64,000 bases of DNA from Elusimicrobiota bacterium (GTDB lineage: Bacteria; Elusimicrobiota; Elusimicrobia; UBA1565), in NCBI GenBank assembly GCA_041661185.1, contig JBAZUV010000001.1:224721-288720 (forward strand). The letters run 5' to 3'. Positions 11,347 to 55,410 of the stretch are shown here, one piece after another. A program made the position numbers and the translations under genes. Position 1 is the first letter of the stretch, and each line of letters begins with the position of its first letter. The notes under the pieces are model-generated. The model was not told the origin of the DNA, did no database searches, and was given only the letters and a program-made list of their open reading frames with translations.

Positions 11347-11355
11347 CCGTCTTTT

Positions 11356-35995: not shown

Positions 35996-38900
35996 ATGAA
36001 AAAGACTTGGATACTCGACGTGCTGCTCGGACTCGCCGTGTCCCTTTTCGTGGGGGGCTCCTATGTGATGCAGGGAGCTTTCCTGGAGAGCCTGGAACTC
36101 AAGGCTTACGACGCGCGCGCGAAGTTCCGTCAGAGCCTGGAGCCGCCCACGGACGTGGTGCTCATCGCTATCGACGACGACTCCATCGCGCGCATGGGCC
36201 GCTGGCCCTGGCCGCGCACGCGCATCGCCGAGATGCTGGACCTGCTCGTTGCGGCCAAGCCCAAGGTCATCGGCTTGGACATCCTCTACAGCGAGCCCGA
36301 GGTCAACCCCGCCATCGCGGAGCTTGAGAATCTCAAGACGCGCTACGGGGAACTCCTTCAAGGCCGCAACATCGTCCAGAAGAAGGGCGTGGATTTCCAG
36401 AACGAGTTCTCCTCCATGGCGGTCCGTCTGGATACGGACTCCCGCCTGCTGGCCTCGCTGACCACGGCGCAGAACGTGGTCCTGCCCATGTTCTTCTCCG
36501 GCGGCGGCCTGCTGGGCGCCAAGCCCGAGGAGCTCCCGCCCGCGCTCTCGAGCGCGGCGCTCACCGCGCGCGTGACGCGCGCCGAGGCCGGGTTCCAGGA
36601 CGTCGAGGGCGGAAAGCCCGTGTATCCGATCCTTCCCTTCCTTAAAGCTTCGGCCGGCGTGGGACACGTGAGCATCTATCCGGATCTCGACGGCGTGGTT
36701 CGCCGCGAGGTGCCCGCGGTCAAGTACGGCGCGTCCTATTTCCCGTCCTACGCCCTGGCGCTCACGGCCCGCTACCTGGGCATCAAACCCGACGAGATCC
36801 TTGTGACTCCCGGCAGTTCCATCGAGCTGGGCAAGCTCAAGATCCCGCTCGACGAGCAGCAGTCCATGCTGGTCACCTTCAACGGTCCGGACCATACCTT
36901 CCGCTATTATTCCTTCCACGAGGTGCTCAACGGCAAGGTGTCCATGGACGTGTTCAAGGACAAAATCGTCATCCTGGGGCCCTCGGCCGCGGGCATCGCC
37001 ACGCTTTACGTGACGCCCGTGGCGCAGTCCCTGCCTTCCGTGGAGTTCATCGCCAACGTCATCGAGAACATACTGGGCCAGCGCTTCCTCGTGCGTCCGC
37101 CGTGGGCCGTGCGCCTGGAACTGGGGCTCATCGCTTTCTGCGCATTCTTCGTCATGTTCCTCCTTCCGCGCCTGAAGGCCTTGGGCGGCGCGATCATCAC
37201 GGCCCTGCTCTTGGCCGCGGCCATGGGCGCGGGCGGCTGGCTCTTCGTGGAGCGCGGGGAGTGGATCAAGGTCATCTATCCCTGCTTCCTGCTGGCCGCG
37301 GGCTACGTCGTCATCGTGACCAAGCGATTCCTCGTCACGGAGAAGGGCAAGGAGCTCGTGGAGGCCTCTGCCATCGAGACCAACAAGATGCTCGGGCTTT
37401 CCTTCCAGGGCCAGGGCATGTTCGACCTTGCGTTCGAGAAGTTCCGGCTCTGCCCGGTCGACGACAACATGAAGGAGACGCTCTACAGCCTGGCTCTGGA
37501 CTTCGAGCGCAAGCGCCAGTACGGGAAGGCCGTCAACGTCTACAAGCACGTTTCGGCGCACGATCCCAAATATAAGGATATCGTCGAGAAGATCAAGACC
37601 CTTTCTGCCGCGGCCGAAGGCGCGGTGTTCGGCGGCATCGGCCAGAAGGGCGGGGAAGGCACGGTGATGGTGACCGCGGGCGCCACCAAGCCCATGCTCG
37701 GCCGCTACGAGATCATCAAGGAACTCGGCCGCGGAGCCATGGGCATCGTCTATCTCGGCAAGGACCCCAAGATCAACCGGCAGGTGGCAATCAAGACCCT
37801 CATGCTCGAGGAGGGCGGCACTCCCGAGGAGACAAAGCAGATCAAGGAGCGCTTCTTCCGCGAGGCCGAGAGCGCGGGCACGCTGAATCATCCGAACATC
37901 GTGCGCATCTACGACGCGGGCGAGGAGCAGGACATCTGCTACATCGCCATGGAGCTGCTCGACGGCCATGATCTGACGCGCTACTGCGGCAAGGAGAACC
38001 GGCTCGATGCGCTGACGGCCATGGAGTACGTTGCCCGCGTGGCCGAGGGGCTCGACTACGCGCACAACCAGGGCATCATCCACCGCGACATCAAGCCCGC
38101 CAACATCATGCTGCTCAATGACGGCTCCGTGCGCGTGGCGGACTTCGGCATCGCGCGCATCGCGGCCTCCTCGAAGACCGCCACCGGCACGGTGATGGGC
38201 ACTCCTTCCTATATGAGCCCGGAGCAGATCGCTGGACGCAAGGTGGACGGCCGCTCGGACCTCTTCAGCCTGGGAGTGACCCTTTTCGAACTGCTTACGG
38301 GCGAGAAGCCTTTCAAGGGCGGAGACGGCATCGGCACGCTGCTCTTTCAGATCGCCAACGAGCCGGAGCCGGAGCCTTTGCAGATCGAGCCCAAGCTGCC
38401 GCGGCGCGTGAGCGCCATCGTGCATAAGGCGCTCAAGAAGAACGCGGACGAACGCCACCAGAAGGGCTCGGAGTTGGCCGCACAACTGCGGGCCTGCATC
38501 GAGGCCGTCAAGAGCGGCGCCGGCGATGAGGCGCAGACCGAGGAGGTCACGGCTGCGGCGGTTGTTCCTATCGTGGAGGCTGCGCCTGTCGTTGAGCCTG
38601 CGGCCGTCGAAGCTCCAGTTCCTGTCGTGGAGGCCGTGCCGGAGCCGGTCGTCGAAGCTTCTGTTTCGGAATCCACGATCGTTGAGTCTCCCGTGCCGGA
38701 ACCGGCAGCGACTTTTGAGATCCCTGTTCCCGTGCAGGAGACCGCGGCCGTTGACGCTCCCGTTTCGGAAGCCGCGGTCATGTCCGCGCCTGTCCAGGAG
38801 TCCACGTTCGTGGAGGCTCCTGCTCCTGAGCCCACGGTGGTCGAGGCTCCTGCGCCGGAGCCGCAGATCCATCTGCAGCCCTTCGATGTCCCTGCGGACT

Positions 38901-39205
38901 CCGAGCATACAATCGTCTTGGAACTCCCGCCCGTGCCTGCGGCTTCCGCTGAACCCGCGGCCGCGCCGGCGCCGCAGCCCGAGTCCGGCGCGGAGCATCA
39001 TTTCACTTTCGAGACGGACCCTATCCCGCCGCCTTCCGCGGAGATCGAGCTGGGTCCCAGGCCGGGAGGCGGTCTTGTCCGGCCGCGCACGCCCGGAGAG
39101 ATCGCCGCGGCTCTGCCCGGCGAGCCGCCGGCTTCCGCCGCGCCCGAGGAGCCCTTGGATCCGGATGCGACCATCCGGCTCGATCCGCCCGGGAGGAGCG
39201 CGTGA
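35996..39205 (+). CDS. CHASE2 sensor + TM + TPR-like + Ser/Thr protein kinase with Pro/Ala/Val/Glu-rich repetitive C-terminal tail
   Basis: CHASE2 motifs (VVLIAIDDDSIARMGRWPWPR). Kinase motifs GRGAMGIVY, AIK, HRDIKPANIML, DFG and SPE. Tail is (V/A)EAPxPEP-like repeats. Confidence 0.85.
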   Translation: MKKTWILDVLLGLAVSLFVGGSYVMQGAFLESLELKAYDARAKFRQSLEPPTDVVLIAIDDDSIARMGRWPWPRTRIAEMLDLLVAAKPKVIGLDILYSEPEVNPAIAELENLKTRYGELLQGRNIVQKKGVDFQNEFSSMAVRLDTDSRLLASLTTAQNVVLPMFFSGGGLLGAKPEELPPALSSAALTARVTRAEAGFQDVEGGKPVYPILPFLKASAGVGHVSIYPDLDGVVRREVPAVKYGASYFPSYALALTARYLGIKPDEILVTPGSSIELGKLKIPLDEQQSMLVTFNGPDHTFRYYSFHEVLNGKVSMDVFKDKIVILGPSAAGIATLYVTPVAQSLPSVEFIANVIENILGQRFLVRPPWAVRLELGLIAFCAFFVMFLLPRLKALGGAIITALLLAAAMGAGGWLFVERGEWIKVIYPCFLLAAGYVVIVTKRFLVTEKGKELVEASAIETNKMLGLSFQGQGMFDLAFEKFRLCPVDDNMKETLYSLALDFERKRQYGKAVNVYKHVSAHDPKYKDIVEKIKTLSAAAEGAVFGGIGQKGGEGTVMVTAGATKPMLGRYEIIKELGRGAMGIVYLGKDPKINRQVAIKTLMLEEGGTPEETKQIKERFFREAESAGTLNHPNIVRIYDAGEEQDICYIAMELLDGHDLTRYCGKENRLDALTAMEYVARVAEGLDYAHNQGIIHRDIKPANIMLLNDGSVRVADFGIARIAASSKTATGTVMGTPSYMSPEQIAGRKVDGRSDLFSLGVTLFELLTGEKPFKGGDGIGTLLFQIANEPEPEPLQIEPKLPRRVSAIVHKALKKNADERHQKGSELAAQLRACIEAVKSGAGDEAQTEEVTAAAVVPIVEAAPVVEPAAVEAPVPVVEAVPEPVVEASVSESTIVESPVPEPAATFEIPVPVQETAAVDAPVSEAAVMSAPVQESTFVEAPAPEPTVVEAPAPEPQIHLQPFDVPADSEHTIVLELPPVPAASAEPAAAPAPQPESGAEHHFTFETDPIPPPSAEIELGPRPGGGLVRPRTPGEIAAALPGEPPASAAPEEPLDPDATIRLDPPGRSA

Positions 39206-40011
39206 GCGCTTTGGAACTGGCCGGCCGCACGGACACCGGCTGCGTGCGCGAGCGCAACGAGGATTCCCTGGCCGTGGAATTCGACATCGGCCTTCTGGTG
39301 GTGGCCGACGGCATGGGCGGACATAATTCCGGCGAGGTAGCCAGCCGCACGGCCGTGGACACCATCGTGGGGAACGCCCGGAAGATGCTGGGCGGCAGCC
39401 AGATCGTGGTCCCCGAGGGCGGCGAGCCGGGGCGTTCCGTGCGCGCGCGCCAGCTCGAATATCTTCTTAAGCTGGCCAACACCGTGATCTTCGAGAAGGC
39501 CCGCGCTTTCCCCAAGGACCACGGCATGGGCACGACCGTGGTCGCGGTCCTGGCCGATGAAAAGTCCTTGACCGTGGCGCACGTGGGCGACAGCCGCCTC
39601 TATCTGCGCCGAGGCGGGACGCTCCAGCAGCTTACCGAGGACCATTCGCTGGTCATGGAGCAGGTCCGCCACGGCCTGATCACCCGCGAGCAGGCCGAGG
39701 CCTCCAATCTGCAGAACATCCTGACCAGGGCCCTGGGCACCGACGAGCAGGTGCAGATCGACGTCTCCGAGCATCCTCTGCTTGCCGGGGACACGTTCCT
39801 GATCTGCTCCGACGGCCTGACCAAGATGGTCTCGGAGGCCGACATCTCCGATATCCTGGCCGCTGCTTCGAGCGCGGACGATGCGGTCGAACGCCTCATC
39901 GCTTCCGCCCGCGAGGCAGGGGGAGCCGACAACATCACGGCCGTCGTGGCGCGCCTATCGGGTCCGCATGAAGGGATCCGGGGATTCTTCTCAAGGCTTT
40001 TCGGAGGGTAG
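39202..40011 (+). CDS. PP2C-family Ser/Thr phosphatase
   Basis: RTDTGCVRERNEDS and VADGMGGH motifs. GTG start overlaps the kinase stop. Confidence 0.9.
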   Translation: MSALELAGRTDTGCVRERNEDSLAVEFDIGLLVVADGMGGHNSGEVASRTAVDTIVGNARKMLGGSQIVVPEGGEPGRSVRARQLEYLLKLANTVIFEKARAFPKDHGMGTTVVAVLADEKSLTVAHVGDSRLYLRRGGTLQQLTEDHSLVMEQVRHGLITREQAEASNLQNILTRALGTDEQVQIDVSEHPLLAGDTFLICSDGLTKMVSEADISDILAAASSADDAVERLIASAREAGGADNITAVVARLSGPHEGIRGFFSRLFGG

Positions 40012-40016
40012 TCAGC

Positions 40017-40721
40017 ATGCCCAAACTCCTGCTCAAGTTCAATGCCGCGGTCATCAAGGAGATCCCGATCGATAAGACCGCGATCACCGTGGGCCGCAAG
40101 CCCGACAACGACGTGGTCATCGACAATCCGGCCGTGAGCGGGCACCACTGCCGCGTCCTGCTTTCCGGAGATACGTTCTTCGTGGAGGACTTGGATTCCA
40201 CCAACGGCACCTTCGTCAACGAGAAGCGCGTCATGAAGTCCGGCCTGCACCACAACGACGTCATCGGCGTGGCTAAGCACGCGCTCGTTTTCGTCAACGA
40301 GCAGGAGGCTGCGCAGGCCGCCGGGAATAAGCCCACGCCCGAGCCCGAGGCCACGGTGATGCTCTCGGCCAAAGCGCAAGAGGATATGGCCAAGGCCTCG
40401 GCCGAGGCGGCTCCCGGCAAACTGGGGGCTCTGCGGGTGCTCAAGGGGCTGGTGGCGGAGGCTGAGTACGAGCTCAAGGGCCTTTCCACCTATATCGGCA
40501 AGTCCGACCGCGTGCAGGTCCCCATCAAGGGCTCCGGGCTCTTCGGCTCCGCGCCCGAGGTTGCGGCCTCCGTTCACCGCAAGCCCGAGGGCTATGTGCT
40601 GGTGGCGGTCAAGGACGGCTATCCCGTGCTCAACGGCCAGAGCGTCTCAGGGCAGGTCCCTCTCAAGGACGGCGATATCATCGAAGTCGGCTCCACCACC
40701 CTGCAGTTCTATTTGAAATAA
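40017..40721 (+). CDS. protein with two FHA domains
   Basis: ITVGRKPDNDVVIDNPAVSGHHCRV...STNGTFVN and a second FHA-like C-terminal half. Confidence 0.85.
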   Translation: MPKLLLKFNAAVIKEIPIDKTAITVGRKPDNDVVIDNPAVSGHHCRVLLSGDTFFVEDLDSTNGTFVNEKRVMKSGLHHNDVIGVAKHALVFVNEQEAAQAAGNKPTPEPEATVMLSAKAQEDMAKASAEAAPGKLGALRVLKGLVAEAEYELKGLSTYIGKSDRVQVPIKGSGLFGSAPEVAASVHRKPEGYVLVAVKDGYPVLNGQSVSGQVPLKDGDIIEVGSTTLQFYLK

Positions 40722-46952: not shown

Positions 46953-48647
46953 GTGAGTTCCAGATACCGACTCTTCTTCGCGGGGCTGATGCTTTGGCCT
47001 TGCTGCGCTTGGCCGCAGGCGGTCGTTGCGCCGGTGCCCGGCAGCGCGTTCGCGCCTCTTGGCGCGGCGGCAGGAGCGGCTGCGATCGCGCCCTTGAGCG
47101 TTGCCGCGCCGGCGGTTCTGCCGACGGCTCTGCCTGCGCTCAGCGGCGACTTGCGATTGGCCCAGCGCGTCATCGAGACCTTGGGCTCGGACCGCTTCGA
47201 GGGACGGGCTCCGGGTACGCGGGGAGGGGAGCTCGCCGAAGCCTATGTCCGGGACTTCTACAAGCGCTACGGCATGGCGCCCGAGAAGGGCAAGGACTAT
47301 CTTCAGCCCGTGAAGCTCAAGGGCTACACCGCCCAGGGCTTCTCCATCGACGACGGCCGGCAGACCCTGGAGTTCGAGAAGGACGTGGCCGGCACCTATG
47401 CCGCTGATGAGAAAGAGTTCGATCTCTCGGCCGAGGCGGTGTTCGTGGGCTTCGGGATCAAGACTCCGATATGGGACTGGGACGATTTCAAGGACGCGGA
47501 CGTGAAGGGCAAGCTCATCATCGCGCGGGTCAATGATCCCGGCCTCTACGATGAGACGATCTTCGAGGGCAAGACGCTGACGTATTTCGGCCGCTGGACC
47601 TATCACGTCGAGGAGGCCCTGCGCAGGGGCGCGGCCGGCATCCTGCTCATTCATACCGATGCGACCGCGGGCTACGGCTGGGAAGTGGTCAAGAACTCCT
47701 GGGGAGCGGAGGCCCTGCTTCTGCCCGAGGACGCGAACAATCCCCTGAAGTTCCGAGGCTGGGTGCAGGAGAAGAGCCTGGAGCGGATGCTTTCGGCGCA
47801 CGGCGTCGATCTGCAGAAGCTCTACGAAGCGTCGAGTTCCAGGGATTTCAGGCCCGTTCCCTTGGGCTTCTCCCTGCGCGTGAAGGGAAAGCAGGCTCTC
47901 CGGGAGCTGACCGCGCACAACGTGGTCGCCGAGATCCCGGGCAAGGTGAAGGAGCGCATCGTGCTCAGCGCGCATATAGACCATCTGGGCAAGAAGGGCG
48001 ACAAGATCTTCAACGGCGCCATCGACAACGGCTCGGCTGTGGCGGCCATGCTCATGCTGGCCAAGGAACTCCAGGAACATCAGAAGGACCTGTACTACAC
48101 GGTCACGGTCCTGGCCTCCGAGGCCGAGGAGGCAGGGCTCCTGGGCAGCCGGCAGTATGCACGCTCCACGGACAGGGACACGGTCGTGGCGAACATCAAT
48201 TTCGAGTCCACGCCCGTCTGGGAGAAGGCGAAGAGCATCATGGGCGTGGGCGCGCGCTATTCCACGCTGGAGGATTCGCTGAAATCCGTGGCAAGCAAGC
48301 GCGGCTGGGACTATTCCGAGTTTTCCTTGGTCGACCAGGGCTTCTTCTACCGCGCCGACCAGTTCTCATTCGCCCGCGCCGGGATCCCTTCGCTCTGGAT
48401 CAGCGCCGGGGAGGATGATCTCTCCGGCCAGCGCAAGTATTCCAAGTTCTGGAAGACCGATTACCACACGCCCAAGGACCGCTTCGACCCCCAATGGCCG
48501 TTGGGCGGCCTGGAGCAGACCGTCGAGGCCGCCCAATCCCTCATCGACGAACTCGGACGCACGCACATCCGCCCCCAGTGGAAAGGCGAGCCCCCCTTCC
48601 CCATGGATGGGGTTGGAATTAAGATGGATTCTGTCCGAACGCCATAG
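46953..48647 (+). CDS. secreted M28-family peptidase with PA domain
   Basis: Signal peptide, then HIDHLGKKGDKIFNGAIDNGSAVAAML zinc-ligand region. GTG start assumed. Confidence 0.8.
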   Translation: MSSRYRLFFAGLMLWPCCAWPQAVVAPVPGSAFAPLGAAAGAAAIAPLSVAAPAVLPTALPALSGDLRLAQRVIETLGSDRFEGRAPGTRGGELAEAYVRDFYKRYGMAPEKGKDYLQPVKLKGYTAQGFSIDDGRQTLEFEKDVAGTYAADEKEFDLSAEAVFVGFGIKTPIWDWDDFKDADVKGKLIIARVNDPGLYDETIFEGKTLTYFGRWTYHVEEALRRGAAGILLIHTDATAGYGWEVVKNSWGAEALLLPEDANNPLKFRGWVQEKSLERMLSAHGVDLQKLYEASSSRDFRPVPLGFSLRVKGKQALRELTAHNVVAEIPGKVKERIVLSAHIDHLGKKGDKIFNGAIDNGSAVAAMLMLAKELQEHQKDLYYTVTVLASEAEEAGLLGSRQYARSTDRDTVVANINFESTPVWEKAKSIMGVGARYSTLEDSLKSVASKRGWDYSEFSLVDQGFFYRADQFSFARAGIPSLWISAGEDDLSGQRKYSKFWKTDYHTPKDRFDPQWPLGGLEQTVEAAQSLIDELGRTHIRPQWKGEPPFPMDGVGIKMDSVRTP

Positions 48648-48757
48648 CGACATTTTGACACTTGAAAGACTTTCCGGTTAGGTCTTTTGGGGTCCTGAAC
48701 AAGACCCGATAGACCCAGGTAATTTTACCGCACGAGGATTATCCTGTACGGAATCGG

Positions 48758-50557
48758 ATGGATTCTAGGATACTCGACGTTCTTTTCCTGCGGCCGGGCG
48801 GACGATTTCCGACGGTCGATCATGATATCGGTTCCGCTTGGGATGCGGTGTCTTGCGGATCGCATCAAGTGCGCAGGCACGACTCGAATTATATTTTTTG
48901 GAAGATCCTGTTATCGTGTCGAGCGAGTGAGTATTTTTTCGGGCGAGGCTTGGCTTCCTTTGCATTGCGATGGGTATTCAAAAAGACTTTTGGGGTTTCT
49001 ATCGAGGAGAGCGCGAGTCGTGCCGAATATTGTTCGGGAATGCTCCAGGATGAATGCACGTATCGTTCGGCGGATGGATATCTCGCCGCAGTCTGCGGCA
49101 TGATCGCTCATCTGAAGAGACTCAATGCCAGCCAGAAAGAATATGCCTTTTCCTTGGGGGCGGGCGTCTGCGTGAATCTCGTCGACTATCGGAAAAGCGA
49201 CAGCATCGTTGAATATGCTCGACGGGCATTTAAAGAGAAGAATTTCTTGTCGCTGCTTGCGGAGTCTTCTTTGGACGGGGCGGGGGATGCCGCTGATCTG
49301 GTTTTCCTTTCGGCGCATTCTCCTGAAGAGCTGCTTTTCGCGGCGCTTTTGGCGCTGCATTTGAAGGCGAGGAATCCGCGTGCATATATTTGCCTTTATG
49401 AGCATGGATATGAAAATTTCTCGCTTCAGCCTCATCTGAGCGAACTTGAGAGGAATCGTCATTTCCTCGGCATTTTTGAGAGCATATTGGTGGGGCCTGC
49501 GGATGTCCCGGAGATGACTGCCGGCATCGTGAAGTGCGCTTCTTCGGACGTCTATCCTTGCGGCATTCTTCGGCGGGCCGATGTCCCAGGTCTTGGGACG
49601 GCCCCCCAGGAGAAGGGGGCGTTCCCTCGCTCGCGGCCGCTACCGACTTTTTCGCCGATGCCTATCCTGTGGACGCGTTTGAATCAGGAACGTTGTTATT
49701 GGGGGCGATGCTCATTTTGCGTCCAGAACCATAAACATGGGGGAGGGCCGGTCGGAGGATCCGGCGGGATGGAAGATTCGTTGAGGAGGCTTCAGACTGC
49801 TCGGGAGGCGGGCTATCGGCATGTCATACTTTCCGACGAGGCCTTGTCTCCTGGAAGATTCAGGGAATTGTCGGCAAGGCTTCTGCTGCTGAAGCTGGAT
49901 CTGCGATGGGCGTGCCGAATCCGGTTCGATGGAGAATTTCGGAGGGAGGATTTCTTCCGGGCAAAAGAGGCGGGCTGTTTCGAGGCCCTTTTGGGGCTCG
50001 AGAGCGTCTCTCCACGAGTCCAGCGGCTTATGAATAAGTATCCCGAGAATCTCGAGCGGAAGCATATCGAGGATATGCTGGCGTGGATGCGTGAGGCGGG
50101 GCTCGGGAGTCATGTGAATATTTTGGGAGGGTTTCCAGGCGAGACGGTCCAGGAGCTTGAGGATACCGTCGGCTTCGTTGCCGCTCATGCGAAAGTGACG
50201 CCGAATATGACGCTTACCTGCAACTGTTTCGAGCTTTTCCCTGGATCGGAGGTCGCGGAGGATCCCAATCGCTATGGGATAGAGGTAAGGCCTTTCTCTG
50301 GGGATGTCGCCCGGGGGCTTTCATTCTCCGTGCGGGGAGAAGGGAACGGCGGCTCGCGGGACCAGCGTCCCTATGTGGATGAGATGCGGCAGCGATTGTT
50401 TTCAGAGGCTGGCTGGGGGACTTTGCTGAATACCGAAGAGGGTATGGCTGCGCTCGGTTTATATATGGATTCCGGCCACGGAGCGGTATTCAAATCCATG
50501 CTGGACAATGTATTCGAAGCCTCAATAAAGGGGAGCGCATGCCGACGATCCTCTTGA
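48758..50557 (+). CDS. B12-binding-domain radical SAM protein (class B-like)
   Basis: CYWGRCSFC cluster (RCSFC context; CX4CX2C spacing) and ILGGFPGET motif. N-terminal Rossmann-like region. Lower GC than the flanks. Start uncertain. Confidence 0.65.
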   Translation: MDSRILDVLFLRPGGRFPTVDHDIGSAWDAVSCGSHQVRRHDSNYIFWKILLSCRASEYFFGRGLASFALRWVFKKTFGVSIEESASRAEYCSGMLQDECTYRSADGYLAAVCGMIAHLKRLNASQKEYAFSLGAGVCVNLVDYRKSDSIVEYARRAFKEKNFLSLLAESSLDGAGDAADLVFLSAHSPEELLFAALLALHLKARNPRAYICLYEHGYENFSLQPHLSELERNRHFLGIFESILVGPADVPEMTAGIVKCASSDVYPCGILRRADVPGLGTAPQEKGAFPRSRPLPTFSPMPILWTRLNQERCYWGRCSFCVQNHKHGGGPVGGSGGMEDSLRRLQTAREAGYRHVILSDEALSPGRFRELSARLLLLKLDLRWACRIRFDGEFRREDFFRAKEAGCFEALLGLESVSPRVQRLMNKYPENLERKHIEDMLAWMREAGLGSHVNILGGFPGETVQELEDTVGFVAAHAKVTPNMTLTCNCFELFPGSEVAEDPNRYGIEVRPFSGDVARGLSFSVRGEGNGGSRDQRPYVDEMRQRLFSEAGWGTLLNTEEGMAALGLYMDSGHGAVFKSMLDNVFEASIKGSACRRSS

Positions 50558-51441
50558 CGGGAGGGACAGGCAATGCCGGCAGCCATGTTGCACGGCAGCT
50601 TCTTGCCCATGGATATGAAATTCTTGCCGTGTCCCGGAGCAAACCGGATTTCCATTGCCGTCATCTTCGTCGAGACCTTCGCGATTTAGAGGGGATTTCT
50701 TCCGAGATCGAATCGACTGATGGGATCATTCATTTGGCGAGTCCGCGCAGCCAAGACGCGAGGGTTACGGTGGAGGAGGATGTCCTTTCTTTTCATATTA
50801 TCTGCCGATACTGGCGAAAAGGCAGCCTGATCTTTGCCAGTAGTCAAGTGGTTTATGGCGTTGCAGTCGGGGACATATGTGAGGACTCGGCGTACCATCC
50901 TTGCGGATGGTACGATTTGGGCAAGATCATTAATGAGCTCCAACTGCAGATGGCGTGCATGGAATCCGGTCGCGGGGCGGGAGTAAGTTTGAGGATACCG
51001 ATCCTCTTCTCTACTGGGAGGAGGAGAACGGATCGTCAGTTCATGACAGATATTCTGGAGCACTGCCGCAAGGGCGGATCATTCGCTTTTGAGAGTGAAG
51101 CGGACTTATATGCGAATGGGACCTCTTTTATTGGGGAAGAGGATTTCGCAGCGGCCGCCGTTGCTGCTCTGCGTATCGACCGGACAGGCGAGTATAATCT
51201 CGCCGGAGGATTTTGCACGTGGAAAGAACTTATCGAATGCGCGCACCGTTTTCTGGGTTCGAGGCCGCGTTTTATTCTTCGCAGGGGGGGGTATAGCATG
51301 CCGGATGAGCTGCGCCTCCCTAGTTCGCGTGCGCGGTTGGACTGCTCGAAATTTCAGAGGGCAGCAAATTGGATCCCGAAAGAAGCGTTAGATATGCTTG
51401 TCGCCCGCTATTTCCAGGAAGATCAGCTGGAGAATGGATGA
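50539..51441 (+). CDS. NAD-dependent epimerase/dehydratase family (SDR) protein
   Basis: ILLTGGTGNAGSHV Rossmann motif. Confidence 0.75.
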   Translation: MPTILLTGGTGNAGSHVARQLLAHGYEILAVSRSKPDFHCRHLRRDLRDLEGISSEIESTDGIIHLASPRSQDARVTVEEDVLSFHIICRYWRKGSLIFASSQVVYGVAVGDICEDSAYHPCGWYDLGKIINELQLQMACMESGRGAGVSLRIPILFSTGRRRTDRQFMTDILEHCRKGGSFAFESEADLYANGTSFIGEEDFAAAAVAALRIDRTGEYNLAGGFCTWKELIECAHRFLGSRPRFILRRGGYSMPDELRLPSSRARLDCSKFQRAANWIPKEALDMLVARYFQEDQLENG

Positions 51442-51478
51442 GTCTTGCGGGATGTTTGGGCGGAAGGGGATAAAACGC

Positions 51479-52885
51479 ATGTTGCTGAGATCGAAATGGG
51501 TCCATCATTATCAGCGAGGGAGCGATGTCGTCTTGTTTCATGCGCTGACCGGGGAGGCTCTATTTGGGAGTTCAGCGCTGCTGTGTTTGTTCCATTCTTT
51601 CCCGGGTCAGGATGTCCTGTCTCAGGGACATCCCGGATTTAAGAGAGGGGAGAGCGATGCTGTCGTCGGTCGGTTGTGTTCTAAGAAAATGCTTGTCCTT
51701 TCGCCTTCGGAAGATGATGGGATGGCGGATTCGTTGCTGGAGAAGGCTGATGGATTTTTCAAAGGGAGGAATAGGCTGTCCCTTCTTTCTACGGATGCAT
51801 GCAATCTTCGGTGCAGATATTGCTATGTGCGCAATAAGGATCACTCGCCGACATTGATGACGGTGGATACTGCGAGGCGTACGGTCGATTACTTCTTCCG
51901 TTTGACAGGGCGACAGGGGGATGAGCGAGAACTGCACTTTCACGGCGGAGAGCCATTGCTCAATCTCCCGGCGGTATTCGCCGCTGCCGATCGCGCGCTG
52001 GAATTGCAGGGGGAGGAGTTCTCGGCGGGGCTGTCGCTTTCCCTGACGACGAACGGGGTCTTGTTGGATGAGGAGGCGGCGCGTCAGTTTGCGAAAAGGG
52101 GGGTCCGAATCTCTGTTTCACTCGATGGGCCTCCCGATGTTCATGACGTATATCGGCGCTCGAAGGAGGGGCAAGGCAGCTGCGAGCAGGCAAGACGCGC
52201 GATAGAGCTCTTGCGTGCTGAGGGGGTTGACGTGCAGATTGCATGCACGTTGACGCCGGAGGTCCTCTCGAGTTGGGACAGGGTCGTGAGCTATTTTGTC
52301 GATGAGGTGGGCGTCGATTCTGTAATAATAGGGACGCTATTGCTGTCTTCTTCCGGAGAGAAAGGAATGTCTTCGGAGATGTCCGAGGGGAGGTCTGCGG
52401 GGGCGGCCATTCGGAGCGTCATCGGTGCGGCCGAGAAGAATCGCTTCGAGGATATAGATATTCTGCCTCGGATTAGAGCGTTTTCGAAGAAAAGGGTTTA
52501 TTTGAAATCGTGCGCGGCGACCGGCGGACAGATGGCTGTCGATCCCGCCGGGAATATAGGGCCGTGCCATGGGTTGTTGGGGGAGTCTCGGTATTTCCCG
52601 CGGAATGTTTTCCGAGACTATGATGAGGATATCGGCGCAAACGAAATGTTTGTAGAATGGAGTCGTCGTAGTCCGTTGCGCTTTCCTGTTTGTCGGCGAT
52701 GTCCAGCCATCGGCATCTGCGGCGGAGGATGTCCTGCATCTGCTTTGCGGGACAGCGGGGATATTTGGGCGGTCGATCGCAGGACATGCTGGTTGGTCAA
52801 GCCGCTTCACGAGTGGCTTATGTGGCGTGTCTTCGATCAAGACGAGAGGCGTTCTGAGGGCGACGTTCGATTGGGAAGGAAATGA
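51479..52885 (+). CDS. radical SAM/SPASM-domain enzyme with N-terminal PqqD-like RRE (peptide-maturase-like)
   Basis: CNLRCRYC (CX3CX2C). C-terminal CHGLL...CRRCPAIGICGGGC auxiliary cluster motifs. N-terminal KWVHHYQRGSDVVLFHALTGEALF resembles a RiPP recognition element. Start could be 51398 or 51452. Confidence 0.75.
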   Translation: MLLRSKWVHHYQRGSDVVLFHALTGEALFGSSALLCLFHSFPGQDVLSQGHPGFKRGESDAVVGRLCSKKMLVLSPSEDDGMADSLLEKADGFFKGRNRLSLLSTDACNLRCRYCYVRNKDHSPTLMTVDTARRTVDYFFRLTGRQGDERELHFHGGEPLLNLPAVFAAADRALELQGEEFSAGLSLSLTTNGVLLDEEAARQFAKRGVRISVSLDGPPDVHDVYRRSKEGQGSCEQARRAIELLRAEGVDVQIACTLTPEVLSSWDRVVSYFVDEVGVDSVIIGTLLLSSSGEKGMSSEMSEGRSAGAAIRSVIGAAEKNRFEDIDILPRIRAFSKKRVYLKSCAATGGQMAVDPAGNIGPCHGLLGESRYFPRNVFRDYDEDIGANEMFVEWSRRSPLRFPVCRRCPAIGICGGGCPASALRDSGDIWAVDRRTCWLVKPLHEWLMWRVFDQDERRSEGDVRLGRK

Positions 52886-52907
52886 GCATAGCCGGATAGG
52901 AGGTCTT

Positions 52908-53117
52908 ATGACGAAGGCGCAAAAATTGGTGTTCTTGCCGCTGCTGCAGGTCCTGATGTCGTTTGTCGGAGGCGCTCGGCCCGTGATGGCCGCTGATTTG
53001 CAGGTGCGGGAGCCTTCTGATAATGCGTATCTCACAGTCATATCGGTCGCGCATGCAGGAGAAGAAGGGTCGCGGCCTATCGGTCGACCGTGTGCGGTTA
53101 CAGGGGTTCGCGGCTGA
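52908..53117 (+). CDS. small ORF encoding signal peptide + about 40-aa peptide (possible product or precursor of the radical SAM cluster)
   Basis: Strong RBS TAGGAGGTC 5 nt before the ATG. MTKAQKLVFLPLLQVLMSFVGGARPVMAADL is signal-peptide-like. Terminator immediately downstream. Confidence 0.4.
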   Translation: MTKAQKLVFLPLLQVLMSFVGGARPVMAADLQVREPSDNAYLTVISVAHAGEEGSRPIGRPCAVTGVRG

Positions 53118-53132
53118 TCTTTTAATGCAGGA

Positions 53133-53169
53133 TGCGCCCCGCCTTTTCCAGGCGGGGCGCATCTTTTTT
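53133..53169 (+). terminator. rho-independent terminator GCGCCCCGCC-loop-GGCGGGGCGC + ATCTTTTTT
   Basis: Seen directly in the sequence; closes the radical SAM gene cluster. Confidence 0.8.
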
Positions 53170-53331
53170 ATGCAGACTTCCTTTGCCCGAATCGTCCGAT
53201 CTCAGACTTGCCATAAATCATCTCGACGAATGGCATGCTGAAAAACTGTATGAGGAGTTGTGGGGGCAGGATTCCTCAGGTCCATCGAGTACTGTTACAG
53301 GGATTGACAGTATTGAAGTACAATACTCACT

Positions 53332-55410
53332 ATGAGCGACAAAGCGAAGGCGAAGGGATCGAGATTCCCATTTTATTTTTCGGTGATTTTCACGATTATT
53401 CTTGTGCTTTTGCAGGCTGTCGGGTTGTTCGCTCCGGCGGACAACCGTTGGCAGGATAATCTGTATCGTTGGCGCGGGATGGTTCAGGGAGATCCTCGTA
53501 TAATTTTCGTGGCGATCGATGACCGATCCATTCAGTCGGTCGGACAGTACCCGTGGCCTCGCAGTAAATATACAAAACTGGTCGATGAAATTTTCCGGAA
53601 TGGAGCGAAGGTCGTCGGTATAGATATCCTTTTTGTGGATCCTTCCCAGCCGCAAGAGGATGATGCGCTCATCGCACTTACACGGAAATATGGTGAAAGG
53701 ATTGTTCATTCGATGGCTTCGGATCCGTCCTTTCAAAATGAGATTCGTTTCATGCGTCCCTTTCCACGTTTGGCTGCCGTCACTCGTTCATTGGGGATGG
53801 TCAAACAGGAGCCTGAGGATGATGGGCAGGTGCGAAAGCTTCCGTTATTCATGGGGAAAAGCGTTTATTACGATGATTGGTTGTCCGATCCGGACCGAGT
53901 CCCAGGATTCGGTTTGAAATTGCTGTCGCTTTATGAGGGCAAATCTCCGAAAAGCTATTTGGAGCGTTTTCCGAACTGGATCAGGATCAATATTCGCGGG
54001 AAGACGAAGAGAGTCATCGGGAAGACTGTCGATGCCAAGGGTGAGACTATAGAGATCGAACAGGAGGTTTTTGGCATCGCACGCATCCCTGCTTGGAAGC
54101 TGCTCTCGAATTCCTTGAGCGCCGATGAACGCAAGAGGTTCAAGGGGGCGATCGCCATCGTGGGTTCTTCCACGGTCGGGGCATTCGACCATTATCCTAC
54201 GGCATTCGATTCAATGTCTCCGGGTGCGGAAGTGTATGCGAACTTCATCGATAACCTTTTGCACGACAGCTATTTCCGATCGGCATCAGGGTATGCCATT
54301 TGTTTGCTCATAATTCTTTTTGTGAGTGCAGTTTGTTTCTTAAGCGTACGGCTGAGTCCGTTCTATACGGCTCTTTCCTTTTTGGGTATGGCCGTGGGTT
54401 GGCTTGCCGTGTCTTGGATATCCTTTCAGCATCTCTATATCCTTGCGTTCGTGGGGCCGATGCTGGCCATCGCGGGAACATTCAGCGTGCTGCTCATCCA
54501 TCGCGCGCTGATGGAAGAGCAGCAGAAGCGCGAGGTGCGGCGGATGTTCGGGCAGTACGTCTCGCCCGAGGTCGTGGACATCCTGGTGCAGGATCCCTCG
54601 AAGATCCGGCTCGGCGGAGACCGGCGGGATATGACGGTGTTCTTCCTCGACATCGCGCACTTCACCACCATCTCGGAGAAGATGTCGCCTGAGAAGCTCA
54701 TCAAGTTCCTCAACAGTTATCTTACGGAGCTCACTGATATCATCCTCAAGAACCACGGGGTCGTGGACAAGTACATCGGCGACTGCATCATGGCCTTCTG
54801 GAATGCGCCCCTGGAGGTCCCGGGGCACCGCGTGCACGCTTGCGTCGCGGCCGTGGAGTGCATCGCGGCCATCGAGAAGCTCAACCGCGAGTACGTGGAC
54901 CCCACCATCCCGGAGAGGCCCTCCGTGCGCATCGGCCTCAACGCGGGAGAGGTGGTCGTGGGCAACACGGGCTCGGCGCGCAAGCTGGCCTACACCGTGC
55001 TGGGCGACGACGTGAACCTAGCCAGCCGCTTGGAAGGCGCCAACAAGTTCTTCGGCTCCACTATCATGGTCAGCGAGAACGTCTACAAGGAAGCTGCCGG
55101 AGTGGTGGAAGCCCGCGAGTTGGGCCGCGTGCGCGTGGTGGGCAAGGCCATCCCCATCCGCGTCTACGAGCTCCTGGCCAAGAAGGGCGCTCTTTCCGAG
55201 CATTGGCAGCAGGCCCTGCCCGAGTATTCCAAGGGAGTGGAGCTCTACAACGCGAAAGATTTCAGCGGCGCTCTCTCTCACTTCGAGAAGGCGCTCAAGG
55301 TCCTGCCTGAGGACAAGCCCTCCAAGCTCTACGCCGAGCTCTGTAAAGGCTATCAGAAGTCTCCGCCTGCCGCGGATTGGGACGGGGTCTTCAACCTGAC
55401 GTCGAAATAA
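53332..55410 (+). CDS. CHASE2 sensor + TM + class III adenylate/guanylate cyclase + C-terminal TPR-like region
   Basis: CHASE2 (IIFVAIDDRSIQSVGQYPWPR). Cyclase motifs DIAHFTTISE and GDCIMAFWNAP. Confidence 0.85.
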   Translation: MSDKAKAKGSRFPFYFSVIFTIILVLLQAVGLFAPADNRWQDNLYRWRGMVQGDPRIIFVAIDDRSIQSVGQYPWPRSKYTKLVDEIFRNGAKVVGIDILFVDPSQPQEDDALIALTRKYGERIVHSMASDPSFQNEIRFMRPFPRLAAVTRSLGMVKQEPEDDGQVRKLPLFMGKSVYYDDWLSDPDRVPGFGLKLLSLYEGKSPKSYLERFPNWIRINIRGKTKRVIGKTVDAKGETIEIEQEVFGIARIPAWKLLSNSLSADERKRFKGAIAIVGSSTVGAFDHYPTAFDSMSPGAEVYANFIDNLLHDSYFRSASGYAICLLIILFVSAVCFLSVRLSPFYTALSFLGMAVGWLAVSWISFQHLYILAFVGPMLAIAGTFSVLLIHRALMEEQQKREVRRMFGQYVSPEVVDILVQDPSKIRLGGDRRDMTVFFLDIAHFTTISEKMSPEKLIKFLNSYLTELTDIILKNHGVVDKYIGDCIMAFWNAPLEVPGHRVHACVAAVECIAAIEKLNREYVDPTIPERPSVRIGLNAGEVVVGNTGSARKLAYTVLGDDVNLASRLEGANKFFGSTIMVSENVYKEAAGVVEARELGRVRVVGKAIPIRVYELLAKKGALSEHWQQALPEYSKGVELYNAKDFSGALSHFEKALKVLPEDKPSKLYAELCKGYQKSPPAADWDGVFNLTSK

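What the first reader, a model, noticed from the sequence alone, without database searches (positions are those of the whole stretch)
48758..53169. Lower-GC four-gene cluster: B12-binding radical SAM + SDR epimerase + radical SAM/SPASM with RRE-like N-terminus + small signal-peptide ORF, closed by a strong terminator
Two different radical SAM enzymes flank an NAD-dependent epimerase. One has CYWGRCSFC and GFPGET, typical of B12-binding class B enzymes but with unusual CX4CX2C spacing. The other has CNLRCRYC plus a SPASM/twitch cysteine array, and its N-terminal 90 aa look like a PqqD-type RiPP recognition element. Directly downstream, a 69-aa ORF has a near-perfect RBS and encodes a Sec-type signal peptide plus about 40 residues, followed by a canonical terminator. 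I cannot match the combination to a known RiPP class such as sactipeptide, ranthipeptide or mycofactocin. It could be a new peptide- or small-molecule-modification pathway acquired horizontally. The adjacent CHASE2 adenylate cyclase may or may not be functionally linked.
Basis: partly seen in the sequence, partly recalled or inferred. Interest (0 to 1): 0.65.

Follow-up and report, generated by a model that had tools for sequence, protein, structure and literature searches.

The report
Secreted-peptide tail-modifying radical SAM gene cluster
The cluster is real and looks like an undescribed peptide-modification (RiPP-like) system, in which small, mostly secreted peptides ending in ...A-V-x-G-V-R-G sit beside an unusual radical SAM enzyme and a partner reductase in about 60 loci from many phyla; this genome adds a second, thioether-type peptide maturase.

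Summary
Four co-directional genes, a strong RBS, a strong terminator and a sharp compositional island are all present.

The four genes are not one conserved unit. The conserved core has three parts:
- a 599-aa radical SAM protein ("rSAM-A") with an invariant CX4CX2C motif and an AprD4/TsrM/OxsB-like fold;
- an NAD(P)-type extended SDR, fused to rSAM-A in 7 relatives;
- one or more small ORFs whose only conserved part is the C-terminal tail A-V-x-G-[VI]-[RK]-G-stop.

The window's 69-aa ORF ends CAVTGVRG. ORFs ending in this motif number 48 of 10,536 in 60 rSAM-A loci, against 1 of 20,691 in control loci. Most carry Sec-type signal peptides.

The second radical SAM is a CteB-like RRE + 7-Cys SPASM peptide maturase. 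It is an accessory found only here. One other locus carries a GrrM-type SPASM instead.

No NCBIfam model reaches its cutoff, and no paper was found. B12 binding is unproven.

The low-GC3 island ends inside the neighbouring cyclase gene, at the junction between the CHASE2 half and the catalytic domain. This hints that the CHASE2 sensor arrived with the cluster.

The chemistry is unknown. My best guess is radical oxidation or rearrangement of the C-terminal tail, followed by NADPH-dependent reduction.

The parts
48758..50557 (+). rSAM-A: 599-aa radical SAM protein with a CX4CX2C cluster motif (C313/C318/C321). It has a Rossmann-like N-terminal domain with a large helical insert, and a C-terminal helical bundle.
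   Evidence: ORF. Pfam Radical_SAM 45.5 bits. No NCBIfam model is near its cutoff. The family of 33 full-length relatives has invariant CYWxRCxxC, HGYENFSL and N-terminal PGRFPTV. The AF2 model has pLDDT 88. Its best PDB matches are AprD4, TsrM, MiaB, MgmA, OxsB, TokK and CysS.
50539..51441 (+). Extended SDR (NAD(P)-dependent epimerase/dehydratase family), the partner of rSAM-A. The gene overlaps the rSAM-A stop codon and is probably translationally coupled.
   Evidence: Pfam PF01370 68 bits. GxxGxxG (G8/G11/G14), S101/S102, Y125, K129 and R33 are at least 90% conserved in 23 relatives. It neighbours rSAM-A in at least 31 of 59 loci. It is fused to rSAM-A in 7 cluster representatives.
51479..52885 (+). 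CteB-like radical SAM/SPASM peptide maturase, 468 aa from the ATG at 51479 (the ORF is open from the TTG at 51398). It has an N-terminal RRE-like domain, CX3CX2C and a 7-Cys SPASM domain. It is an accessory tailoring enzyme specific to this locus.
   Evidence: NCBIfam best hits are FibroRumin 171 bits (cutoff 400) and PapB 162 bits (cutoff 340). The family alignment shows the invariant Cys. The AF2 model has pLDDT 87.8 with a beta-beta-beta-alpha-alpha-alpha topology at model residues 17-77. Foldseek best hit is CteB at E 3e-22 (TM-score up to 0.80 for chain 5why_A), followed by TigE and anSME. No homologue was found in other rSAM-A loci.
52898..52903 (+). Shine-Dalgarno AGGAGG, 4 nt upstream of the precursor start codon.
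   Evidence: Read directly from the sequence.
52908..53117 (+). Precursor peptide gene, 69 aa. It has a Sec-type signal peptide (MTKAQK / LVFLPLLQVLMSFVGG / ARPVMA|AD) and then about 41 residues ending in the family motif C-A-V-T-G-V-R-G-stop.
   Evidence: Translation. It is the only one of 1227 stop-to-stop segments in the window that ends in the motif. The same C-terminal motif occurs in small ORFs next to rSAM-A in more than 33 loci.
53129..53171 (+). Intrinsic terminator closing the four-gene operon.
   Evidence: 16-bp stem and T-run. Free energy -34.9 kcal/mol, z = -5.2.
53332..54450 (+). CHASE2 sensor and transmembrane half of the 692-aa CHASE2-adenylate/guanylate cyclase. It has island-like composition and is possibly functionally linked to the cluster.
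   Evidence: Pfam CHASE2 137 bits. GC3 is 0.42-0.75 up to about codon 370. A CHASE2 cyclase also lies downstream of rSAM-A in L020/L133 and in L090/L101.
54451..55410 (+). Cyclase catalytic domain and TPR tail of the same ORF. It has host-like composition.
   Evidence: Pfam Guanylate_cyc 78.6 bits. GC3 is 0.75-0.97. It is 54-56% identical to the cyclases of L020 and L090, against 25-28% for the CHASE2 half.

Best explanation
This is a RiPP-like peptide-modification operon built around a three-part core that recurs in many phyla but is not described in the libraries searched.

Core components:
1. A small precursor. Its N-terminus is usually a Sec signal peptide. Its only conserved part is the extreme C-terminal tail A-V-x-G-[V/I]-[R/K]-G-COOH.
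2. rSAM-A, a radical SAM enzyme with an AprD4/TsrM/OxsB-like architecture and a CX4CX2C cluster motif.
3. An NAD(P)H-type extended SDR.

Proposed mechanism:
- In the cytoplasm, rSAM-A recognises the C-terminal tail. This step is inferred. rSAM-A has no RRE, but it has a strongly conserved N-terminal domain.
- rSAM-A uses a 5'-deoxyadenosyl radical to abstract an H atom from a tail residue, giving an oxidised or rearranged intermediate such as a carbonyl, imine or dehydro species.
- The SDR then processes that intermediate with NAD(P)H. This is the same logic as the AprD4 (radical SAM) / AprD3 (reductase) pair. The step is inferred by analogy, and the actual chemistry is unknown.
- In this genome an extra CteB-like RRE-rSAM-SPASM enzyme acts on the same 69-aa peptide. 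Most likely it links its single Cys (position -8) into a thioether (inferred).
- The modified peptide is exported by Sec and cleaved after VMA, leaving a product of about 41 residues (inferred).

What is shown: gene content, folds, motif conservation, gene fusion and co-occurrence.
What is not shown: substrate identity, the chemistry, cobalamin use and export.
For: rSAM-A family:
- There are 33 full-length relatives at 30-37% identity, with invariant CYWxRCxxC.
- About 70 clusters at 50% identity match full-length among 1.84 billion representatives.

rSAM-A and SDR as a unit:
- The two are fused in P0147, P0151, P0152, P0160, P0168, P0173 and P0177.
- They are adjacent in at least 31 of 59 loci.
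- The SDR catalytic and cofactor residues are conserved.

Precursor family:
- ORFs ending [GA][VIT][RK]G-stop number 48 of 10,536 in rSAM-A loci. In control loci the count is 1 of 20,691, and in the window 1 of 1227.
- Positions that were not used for selection are also conserved: Val at -6 in 30 of 43 and Ala at -7 in 20 of 43.
- Some loci carry tandem copies: 4 in L094, 3 in L087, 2 in L019.
- At least 25 of 43 peptides have signal-peptide-like N-termini.

Other peptide- or protein-modifying genes are recruited to the same loci:
- a GrrM/OscB cyclophane maturase, 386 bits against a cutoff of 310, next to an ...AVAGVRG precursor in L106;
- a 2OG-Fe(II) oxygenase beside the PPPPPPPAVGAVRG precursors;
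- FkbM methyltransferase and PrsW protease.

SPASM enzyme:
- The model gives an RRE + rSAM + SPASM architecture matching CteB.
- Its relatives sit next to Cys-rich peptides (L131).
- Its closest relative (39% identity, L004) sits in a cluster with a GG-leader peptide ending CGVCGVRG.

Precedents: AprD4/AprD3 as a radical SAM plus reductase pair, and OxsB with CX4CX2C.
Against: - There is no biochemical evidence.
- rSAM-A has no recognisable RRE, and its nearest solved relatives act on small molecules (AprD4, OxsB, TsrM).
- The SDR belongs to the family that usually handles nucleotide sugars.
- About 40% of loci show no motif ORF. Many of these are short contigs, but some long ones also lack it: L012, L013/L110, L018, L121 and L126. 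A few sub-clades have differently ending small ORFs.
- Cytoplasmic modification of a Sec substrate requires that modification precede export.
- The window's peptide has only one Cys for the SPASM enzyme.
- The SPASM-peptide pairing rests on adjacency and on a single analogous locus (L004).
Confidence: 0.6

Rival explanations
1. rSAM-A and the SDR work on a non-peptide small molecule such as a sugar nucleotide, aminoglycoside-like compound or lipid, as AprD4/AprD3 do. The AVxGVRG proteins would then be co-regulated secreted proteins (for example acceptors, carriers or binding proteins) and not the enzymes' substrate.
For: The closest solved structures and sequences are AprD4, TsrM and OxsB, all small-molecule enzymes. 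The SDR hits NDP-sugar epimerase/dehydratase families. rSAM-A has no RRE. Some loci lack a detectable motif ORF.
Against: No sugar-activation, glycosyltransferase or transporter genes are conserved in these neighbourhoods. The only universally recurring partners are the SDR and the motif peptides. Those peptides occur in tandem arrays and share only a terminal octapeptide, which is the pattern expected of an enzyme recognition or modification site. Accessory genes in the loci are peptide- or protein-modifying: SPASM maturases, a prolyl-hydroxylase-like 2OG oxygenase next to poly-Pro precursors, and PrsW protease.
Confidence: 0.15
2. The system makes a peptide-derived small molecule or cofactor, as in mycofactocin or PQQ. 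The conserved C-terminal residues (V-R-G) would be cross-linked or oxidised by rSAM-A/SDR and then excised, and the rest of the peptide would be a disposable scaffold.
For: Conservation is confined to the extreme C-terminus, as in MftA (...GVY) and PqqA (established knowledge of those pathways). A radical SAM plus redox enzyme core is present. The upstream peptide region is hypervariable in length and sequence.
Against: Most precursors carry Sec signal peptides, implying export of the whole peptide. No conserved peptidase accompanies the core, and PrsW is present in only about 5 loci. Several divergent precursors per locus and Cys pairs just upstream of the tail suggest that the peptide body matters. 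The mycofactocin markers are absent: the precursor ends GVRG and not GVY, and no mftB/D/E/F-type genes were called in the region.
Confidence: 0.1
3. Only the SPASM enzyme and the 69-aa ORF form a RiPP pair (a sacti- or ranthipeptide-like product). rSAM-A and the SDR would be an unrelated pair that merely shares the operon.
For: The SPASM gene and peptide gene are adjacent, 22 nt apart. The SPASM enzyme has an RRE and CteB-like architecture. The peptide has a Cys near the C-terminus.
Against: In more than 30 loci that have no SPASM gene, peptides with the same tail still sit next to rSAM-A/SDR. The tail motif therefore tracks rSAM-A and not the SPASM family. The SPASM homologues in L005, L006, L131 and L132 have no such peptide.
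Confidence: 0.08
4. The small ORFs are chance reading frames, and the cluster is just a set of orphan enzymes.
For: Many of these small ORFs are unannotated, including the window's 69-aa ORF in the NCBI record. BLAST finds no homologues of the 69-aa product.
Against: The motif ending is roughly 90-fold enriched over control loci, with 48 of 10,536 against 1 of 20,691. There is strand bias, 44 on the rSAM-A strand against 3 on the other, and one of those 3 is a real precursor in a divergent operon. Positions -6 and -7, which were not selected for, are conserved. The window ORF has a strong RBS and a terminator.
Confidence: 0.02

Closest known systems
AprD4 / AprD3 (apramycin C3'-deoxygenation: radical SAM diol dehydratase plus NADPH-dependent reductase)
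   Same: AprD4 is the best structural match (Foldseek E 9e-11) and the best sequence match (E 2e-7) to rSAM-A. Both are two-enzyme systems of a radical SAM protein with a Rossmann-like N-domain plus a nicotinamide-dependent partner.
   Different: Identity is only about 15%. The NCBIfam AprD4 model scores 15 bits against a cutoff of 500. AprD4 acts on an aminoglycoside. Here the conserved neighbour is a peptide, and there are no aminoglycoside genes.
OxsB and other class B (cobalamin-dependent) radical SAM enzymes (TsrM, TokK, CysS, MgmA)
   Same: The overall architecture is shared. OxsB also has the rare CX4CX2C cluster motif. NCBI names two relatives 'B12-binding domain-containing radical SAM protein'.
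   Different: No Pfam B12-binding hit was found in any of the 33 family members. There is a large helical insertion in the Rossmann-like domain. Cobalamin binding is untested. No methyltransferase family model is near its cutoff.
CteB / SCIFF-, PapB- and FibroRumin-type radical SAM/SPASM thioether maturases (sactipeptides, ranthipeptides)
   Same: The window's second radical SAM has the same RRE + rSAM + 7-Cys SPASM architecture. It sits directly upstream of a Cys-containing peptide gene.
   Different: It scores below every equivalog cutoff: 171 vs 400, 162 vs 340 and 111 vs 425. The precursor has a single Cys and a Sec signal peptide, not a Cys-rich core with a classical leader.
Mycofactocin (MftA/MftC) and PQQ (PqqA/PqqE)
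   Same: A radical SAM enzyme would act on a short motif at the very C-terminus of a small peptide whose remainder is poorly conserved.
   Different: The enzyme family is different (not SPASM, no PqqD/MftB partner). The motif is different (GVRG, not GVY). The precursors carry signal peptides. The other pathway genes are absent.
GrrM/OscB triceptide (three-residue cyclophane) systems
   Same: In related locus L106 a GrrM-family maturase above its cutoff sits in one operon with an ...AVAGVRG precursor and the SDR. This shows that the core combines with known RiPP maturases.
   Different: The window has no GrrM homologue. Its SPASM enzyme belongs to another sub-family.
TigE-type cyclopropylglycine synthases
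   Same: TigE is the fourth-best structural match to the SPASM enzyme (E 4e-21). These enzymes act on Val/Ile, and the conserved tail has two Val residues.
   Different: The defining Gly-Tyr-Trp motif that ligates auxiliary cluster I is absent from the window protein.

Membership tests
Radical SAM superfamily (rSAM-A) | A Cys triad binding the SAM-cleaving [4Fe-4S] cluster within a partial TIM barrel | tested here: met
   Pfam PF04055 45.5 bits against a cutoff of 29.5. C313/C318/C321 are invariant in 33 sequences, but spaced CX4CX2C. The barrel is modelled with high confidence.
Class B, cobalamin-dependent radical SAM | N-terminal Rossmann-like cobalamin-binding domain | tested here: inconclusive
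   The fold resembles TsrM, OxsB, TokK and CysS. The best match is AprD4; that AprD4's equivalent domain does not bind cobalamin is recalled from memory, not checked here. Pfam PF02310 is not detected in any family member, although it is detected in the B12-type rSAMs of L004.
Class B, cobalamin-dependent radical SAM | Actual cobalamin binding or dependence | not testable with these tools
   No cobalamin riboswitch or other Rfam family reached its gathering score in the 48300-53600 region searched. This is only weak negative evidence.
PhpK / AprD4 / HpnJ / RiPP C-methyltransferase NCBIfam families | Score at or above the curated cutoff | tested here: not met
   Scores against cutoffs: 58.4 vs 600, 15.1 vs 500, 24.7 vs 578, 25.6 vs 282.
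Extended SDR (NAD(P)-dependent epimerase/dehydratase) | GxxGxxG dinucleotide fold and the S...YxxxK catalytic residues | tested here: met
   PF01370 68 bits. G8/G11/G14, S101/S102, Y125 and K129 are at least 90% conserved. The conserved R33 after beta-2 suggests NADP(H) (the cofactor preference is an inference).
Radical SAM/SPASM RiPP maturase (CteB/SCIFF/PapB type) | CX3CX2C plus a C-terminal SPASM domain with 7 Cys | tested here: met
   CNLRCRYC is present. C372, C414, C417, C423, C427 and C446 are invariant and C354 is at least 90% conserved in 40 sequences. The structural match to CteB has TM-score 0.80.
Radical SAM/SPASM RiPP maturase (CteB/SCIFF/PapB type) | N-terminal RiPP recognition element (PqqD-like winged helix) | tested here: met
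   The AF2 model shows three beta-strands then three helices at model residues 17-77, pLDDT 66-96 by 10-residue block, mostly above 90. The alignment to RRE-containing CteB spans the full length. Pfam PqqD itself does not hit.
Radical SAM/SPASM RiPP maturase (CteB/SCIFF/PapB type) | Membership of a named equivalog (FibroRumin, PapB, SCIFF, nif11, DynA, anSME and others) | tested here: not met
   All hits are below cutoff: 171 vs 400, 162 vs 340, 111 vs 425, 133 vs 519, 125 vs 450 and 96 vs 349.
Cyclopropylglycine synthases (TigE/TvgB type) | Gly-Tyr-Trp motif providing the Tyr ligand to auxiliary cluster I | tested here: not met
   The motif is described in PMC10878394. There is no GYW in the 468-aa sequence.
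Mycofactocin system | MftA ending in ...GVY, plus MftB/C/D/E/F | tested here: not met
   The precursor ends GVRG. No mycofactocin-pathway proteins were called in the region, and the mycofactocin maturase model is not among the window SPASM protein's 25 best NCBIfam hits.
Proposed AVxGVRG-tail precursor family (defined here) | A small ORF next to rSAM-A ending A-V-x-G-[VI]-[RK]-G-stop | tested here: met
   The window peptide ends C-A-V-T-G-V-R-G. The family profile is and the enrichment.
Sec-type signal peptide | Positive n-region, hydrophobic h-region, small-x-small cleavage site | tested here: inconclusive
   By inspection the pattern is MTKAQK / LVFLPLLQVLMSFVGG / ARPVMA-AD. No dedicated predictor was available. 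A crude regex classed 25 of 43 family members as SP-like and missed this one because of a Gln in the h-region.
CHASE2-domain nucleotide cyclase | CHASE2 and class III cyclase domains above Pfam cutoffs | tested here: met
   CHASE2 137 bits against 26.3, and Guanylate_cyc 78.6 bits against 21.9.

The most novel reading that the evidence does not exclude
The AVxGVRG-tail peptides would be a new class of exported, radical-SAM-modified peptide signals. In this genome the mature peptide would be the extracytoplasmic ligand of the CHASE2 sensor domain that arrived on the same island and was recombined in-frame onto a resident adenylate-cyclase catalytic domain. The result would be a self-contained circuit in which a modified peptide controls cAMP output. 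It would also supply a first ligand type for the CHASE2 domain; that the CHASE2 ligand is still unknown is recalled from memory, not checked here.
Probability: 0.12. Interest if true: 0.9.

Novelty: new variant of a known kind. Interest (0 to 1): 0.7.

Why it matters
If the peptides are the substrates, this defines a new RiPP-like class with several unusual features:
- recognition through a C-terminal octapeptide and not a leader;
- Sec signal peptides in place of classical leaders;
- a class-B-like CX4CX2C radical SAM enzyme obligatorily paired with, and sometimes fused to, an NAD(P)H SDR.

That enzyme pairing has so far been known from aminoglycoside deoxygenation and not from peptide chemistry, so a new post-translational modification is likely.

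The family is small (about 70 clusters at 50% identity) but spans many lineages, including Elusimicrobia, Alpha-, Beta- and Gammaproteobacteria, Terriglobia, Binataceae and Bacillota.

It gives a directly testable system: a 69-aa peptide plus two or three enzymes. The compositional breakpoint inside the CHASE2 cyclase also suggests a testable link between a secreted modified peptide and cAMP signalling.

Tried and rejected
- **tblastn with the small ORF.** My first tblastn query for the small ORF was mis-framed by one base (52909 instead of 52908), so that negative result is void. The same error affected the GC3 value for the peptide. The corrected search and the 5.8-billion-protein search still find nothing significant. 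The family is visible only as a C-terminal motif.
- **A precursor upstream of rSAM-A (48648-48757).** There is no plausible ORF there.
- **Cobalamin riboswitch or other RNA element in 48300-53600.** Only sub-threshold hits on the terminator were found.
- **The SPASM enzyme as a conserved partner of rSAM-A.** Rejected. It is absent from 59 other loci, except for an unrelated GrrM-type enzyme in L106.
- **The SPASM enzyme as a cyclopropyl synthase.** Rejected because there is no GYW motif.
- **The SPASM enzyme as an anaerobic sulfatase maturase.** It scores 96 bits against a cutoff of 349, and no sulfatase gene is nearby.
- **Contexts of SPASM homologues** (L005, L006/7, L131, L132). They are heterogeneous and contain no VRG peptides. 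Only L004 has one.
- **Literature searches.** Searches for GVRG + radical SAM, for CX4CX2C, and for rSAM + SDR + RiPP found no description of this system.
- **Nitrospira/Nitrospina hits from the genome scan (L023-L086).** These are a different, wider CX4CX2C clade. I used them only as controls.
- **Identity of the organism.** Not established beyond the assembly accession GCA_041666825.1.

Full report
**1. What is in the window**

The region 48.7-53.2 kb carries four co-directional genes.
- rSAM-A, 48758-50557, 599 aa.
- An extended SDR, 50539-51441, 300 aa, overlapping the rSAM-A stop by 19 nt.
- A radical SAM/SPASM protein. Its ORF is open from 51398. The best start is the ATG at 51479, preceded by GGAAGGGGA. 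This gives 468 aa and matches the NCBI gene call.
- A 69-aa ORF, 52908-53117, with AGGAGG 4 nt upstream.

A perfect 16-bp hairpin plus T-run follows at 53129-53171 (-34.9 kcal/mol, z = -5.2). The window is contig JBAYGF010000001.1 of the MAG GCA_041666825.1. That record does not annotate the 69-aa gene.

The four genes have GC3 of 0.56-0.61, against 0.83-0.92 for the flanking sucCD, DsbD-like, M28 peptidase, RNase T-like and hutU genes.

**2. rSAM-A and the SDR form a conserved and sometimes fused pair**

rSAM-A has no NCBIfam assignment. Its best score is the PhpK family at 58 bits against a cutoff of 600.

A search of 5.8 billion proteins returned 32 full-length relatives at 30-37% identity. 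They also share HGYENFSL and a conserved N-terminal PGRFPTV...W motif.

A profile search of 1.84 billion representatives finds about 70 clusters matching over the full length. It also finds a much wider set (1239 at E below 1e-30) that shares only the core.

Seven representatives are rSAM-A-SDR fusion proteins. In unfused loci an orthologous SDR lies next to rSAM-A in at least 31 of 59 loci. The SDR keeps GxxGxxG, the Ser/Tyr/Lys catalytic residues, and a conserved Arg after beta-2 that suggests NADP(H).

The AF2 model of rSAM-A (pLDDT 88) matches several solved structures:
- AprD4, the best match, at E 9e-11;
- TsrM;
- MiaB/RimO;
- MgmA;
- OxsB;
- TokK and CysS.

These share a Rossmann-like N-domain plus a radical SAM barrel.

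Pfam's B12-binding model hits none of the family, although it does hit the B12-type rSAMs in L004. I therefore call the architecture class-B-like and leave cobalamin use open.

OxsB is a published precedent for CX4CX2C (PMC9204698). AprD4 works with an NADPH-dependent reductase partner, AprD3 (PMC5461906). That is the closest functional analogy to a radical SAM + SDR pair.

**3. The small ORF is conserved, but only at its tail**

BLAST and HMMER find no relatives of the 69-aa product.

Reading the neighbours of rSAM-A in other loci showed small ORFs that all end the same way.
- Window: ...RPCAVTGVRG
- L087: ...ICTGILGVRG and ...TQVAFGVRG
- L090: ...GCIVIGIRG
- L009: ...PRPTAVGGVRG
- L094: four tandem genes ending ...TAVTGVRG, ...DTVAGVRG (twice) and ...PAVAGVRG
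- Alphaproteobacterial loci: ...PPPPPPPAVGAVRG
- L134: ...PPQACTGVRG
- L106: ...CSAVAGVRG

Across 60 rSAM-A loci (519 kb), 48 of 10,536 stop-to-stop segments of at least 25 codons end [GA][VIT][RK]G. In 878 kb of control loci the count is 1 of 20,691. In the 64-kb window it is 1 of 1227, and that one is the 69-aa ORF.

The hits lie on the rSAM-A strand 44 to 3. One of the three opposite-strand hits is a genuine precursor in a divergent operon.

Positions that were not part of the search pattern are also conserved: Val at -6 in 30 of 43, Ala at -7 in 20 of 43, and Pro at -9 and -8. The family signature is therefore A-V-x-G-[VI]-[RK]-G-COOH.

At least 25 of 43 peptides have signal-peptide-like N-termini. 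The true number is higher, since the crude test missed obvious cases including the window's. Many have a Cys pair just before the tail.

A few sub-clades differ.
- Some have non-secretory leaders (L019, L123).
- Some have precursors of about 125-190 aa ending ...GGVMGIKG (L089, L114, L130).
- Some long loci show no motif ORF at all (L012, L013/L110, L018, L121, L126).

**4. Other genes recruited to these loci also act on peptides or proteins**

- A 2OG-Fe(II) oxygenase and DUF6065 sit beside the poly-proline precursors.
- An FkbM-type methyltransferase is present in about 10 loci.
- A PrsW intramembrane protease is present in about 5 loci.
- In L106, a GrrM/OscB cyclophane maturase above its NCBIfam cutoff (386 against 310) sits in one operon with an AVAGVRG precursor and the SDR.

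This argues that the small proteins are the objects of modification.

**5. The second radical SAM is a locus-specific accessory**

Its best NCBIfam hits are all peptide maturases, and none reaches its cutoff:

| Model | Score (bits) | Cutoff (bits) |
|---|---|---|
| FibroRumin | 171 | 400 |
| PapB | 162 | 340 |
| nif11 | 133 | 519 |
| DynA | 125 | 450 |
| SCIFF | 111 | 425 |
| Anaerobic sulfatase maturase | 96 | 349 |

Forty relatives share the CX3CX2C triad and seven SPASM cysteines.

The AF2 model (pLDDT 87.8) has an N-terminal beta3-alpha3 domain. It aligns over its full length with the RRE-containing thioether synthase CteB (E 3e-22 for the best chain; TM-score 0.80 for chain 5why_A). TigE, anSME, ChlB and SuiB follow.

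It is not a cyclopropyl synthase by the published criterion, because it has no GYW motif.

No homologue occurs in any other rSAM-A locus. Its relatives sit in varied contexts. One is next to a very Cys-rich 106-aa peptide and a B12 rSAM (L131). The closest relative (39% identity) lies in a multi-rSAM cluster whose GG-leader peptide ends ...SCGVCGVRG (L004).

I infer that in this genome it adds a modification, most likely a thioether from the single Cys at -8, to the same precursor.

**6. The cyclase**

GC3 along the 692-codon CHASE2-cyclase ORF jumps from 0.42-0.75 to 0.82-0.97 at about codon 370-380, near position 54450. That is the junction between the CHASE2/transmembrane half and the catalytic domain. 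The compositional island therefore runs from about 48.7 to 54.45 kb and ends inside this gene. This is what one would expect if the island recombined with a resident cyclase.

A CHASE2 cyclase also lies two genes downstream of rSAM-A, after a secreted HEAT-repeat protein, in an Elusimicrobia MAG (L020/L133) and in the related metagenome locus L090/L101. These two loci represent one additional lineage, so the support is modest.

A functional link is plausible but unproven. It would mean the secreted peptide is sensed by the CHASE2 domain.

**7. Mechanism and confidence**

*Shown:* gene content, folds, motifs, fusions and co-occurrence.

*Inferred:*
- The precursor's C-terminal tail is the recognition and modification site of rSAM-A.
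- rSAM-A starts a radical oxidation or rearrangement, and the SDR completes it with NAD(P)H, following the AprD4/AprD3 logic.
- The SPASM enzyme adds a cross-link.
- The product is exported by Sec and cleaved after VMA.

I put 0.6 on this overall picture.

*Rivals:*
- a small-molecule substrate for rSAM-A/SDR (0.15);
- a mycofactocin-like excised product (0.10);
- a SPASM-only RiPP with an unrelated rSAM-A/SDR pair (0.08);
- chance ORFs (0.02).

The actual chemical change is unknown. Candidates include C-terminal Gly oxidation or amidation, dehydrogenation followed by stereo-inverting reduction of Val or Arg, and B12-dependent methylation. These are speculation.

**8. Novelty**

No NCBIfam (June 2026) or Pfam model captures rSAM-A, the precursor or the system. 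Full-text searches found no description.

It is a new variant within a known kind, radical-SAM-modified ribosomal peptides. Its distinctive features are tail recognition, signal-peptide precursors and an obligate rSAM-SDR pair.

Noticed in passing
window 53332-55410 (breakpoint near 54440-54470): There is a sharp GC3 step inside the CHASE2-cyclase ORF. The CHASE2/TM half has island-like GC3 of about 0.42-0.75 and the catalytic half has host-like GC3 of 0.82-0.97. This suggests an in-frame recombination junction between a transferred sensor domain and a resident catalytic domain.
   Followed up: partly
L106 1172-3889 (- strand) and 3948-5654 (+): This is a second combination of the core with a SPASM maturase. 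An ...AVAGVRG precursor, a GrrM/OscB-family cyclophane maturase (386 bits, above its cutoff) and the SDR form one operon, and rSAM-A is transcribed divergently.
   Followed up: partly
L004 (Logan SRR18502801 contig), 530-13275: This is a multi-radical-SAM cluster with three B12-type rSAMs, three SPASM-type rSAMs (including the closest relative of the window's SPASM, 39% identity), a further radical SAM protein without a B12-binding hit that is a weak (23%) rSAM-A relative, and a rotamase. It also has a 76-aa GG-leader peptide ending ...SCGVCGVRG. The same tail motif is used here with a classical leader and without the SDR.
   Followed up: partly
L010, L014, L017, L088, L116, L011/L122: An alphaproteobacterial sub-type has precursors ending PPPPPPPAVG[AG]VRG. 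They are accompanied by a 2OG-Fe(II) oxygenase (possibly a prolyl hydroxylase), DUF6065 and an FkbM methyltransferase. Several of these loci have no SDR.
   Followed up: partly
L035 7071-8969 and 8991-10952 (also L023-L086): Nitrospira, Nitrospina and Nitrospirales genomes carry tandem pairs of 632/653-aa class-B-like radical SAM proteins with RGCYWGRC[ET]FC, which is also CX4CX2C. They belong to a much wider clade with the same unusual spacing (1239 representatives at E below 1e-30). Their function is unknown.
   Followed up: no
P0212, P0214, P0215: These are giant proteins of 2.0-2.3 thousand aa. P0212 carries five radical SAM domains, four B12-binding domains and a SPASM domain in one polypeptide.
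   Followed up: no
window about 36000-40720 (L001 1-1964): A second CHASE2 protein lies about 9 kb upstream of the cluster. It is a 1069-aa CHASE2-Ser/Thr kinase, followed by a PP2C phosphatase and an FHA-domain protein. Its CHASE2 domain is about 30% identical to that of the cyclase over 152 residues.
   Followed up: no
window 52908-53117 and 53332-55410 vs NCBI record (L001): The public annotation of GCA_041666825.1 omits the 69-aa precursor gene. It calls only a 362-aa C-terminal fragment of the cyclase, plus a 72-aa ORF on the opposite strand, although the 692-codon frame is intact.
   Followed up: no
L131 4105-4425: A 106-aa extremely Cys-rich peptide (…CDCSTCACDACSCNCACNACGACYCDCSCSD…) lies directly upstream of a SPASM homologue (32% identity to the window's) and a B12 rSAM. 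It is probably an uncharacterised thioether RiPP.
   Followed up: no
L013 and L110 (8001-11637 / 6001-9681), L104: This sub-clade has two tandem rSAM-A paralogues, no SDR, and a 53-56-aa membrane-anchored small ORF ending ...GQGSLA or ...MYGGC instead of the VRG tail.
   Followed up: no
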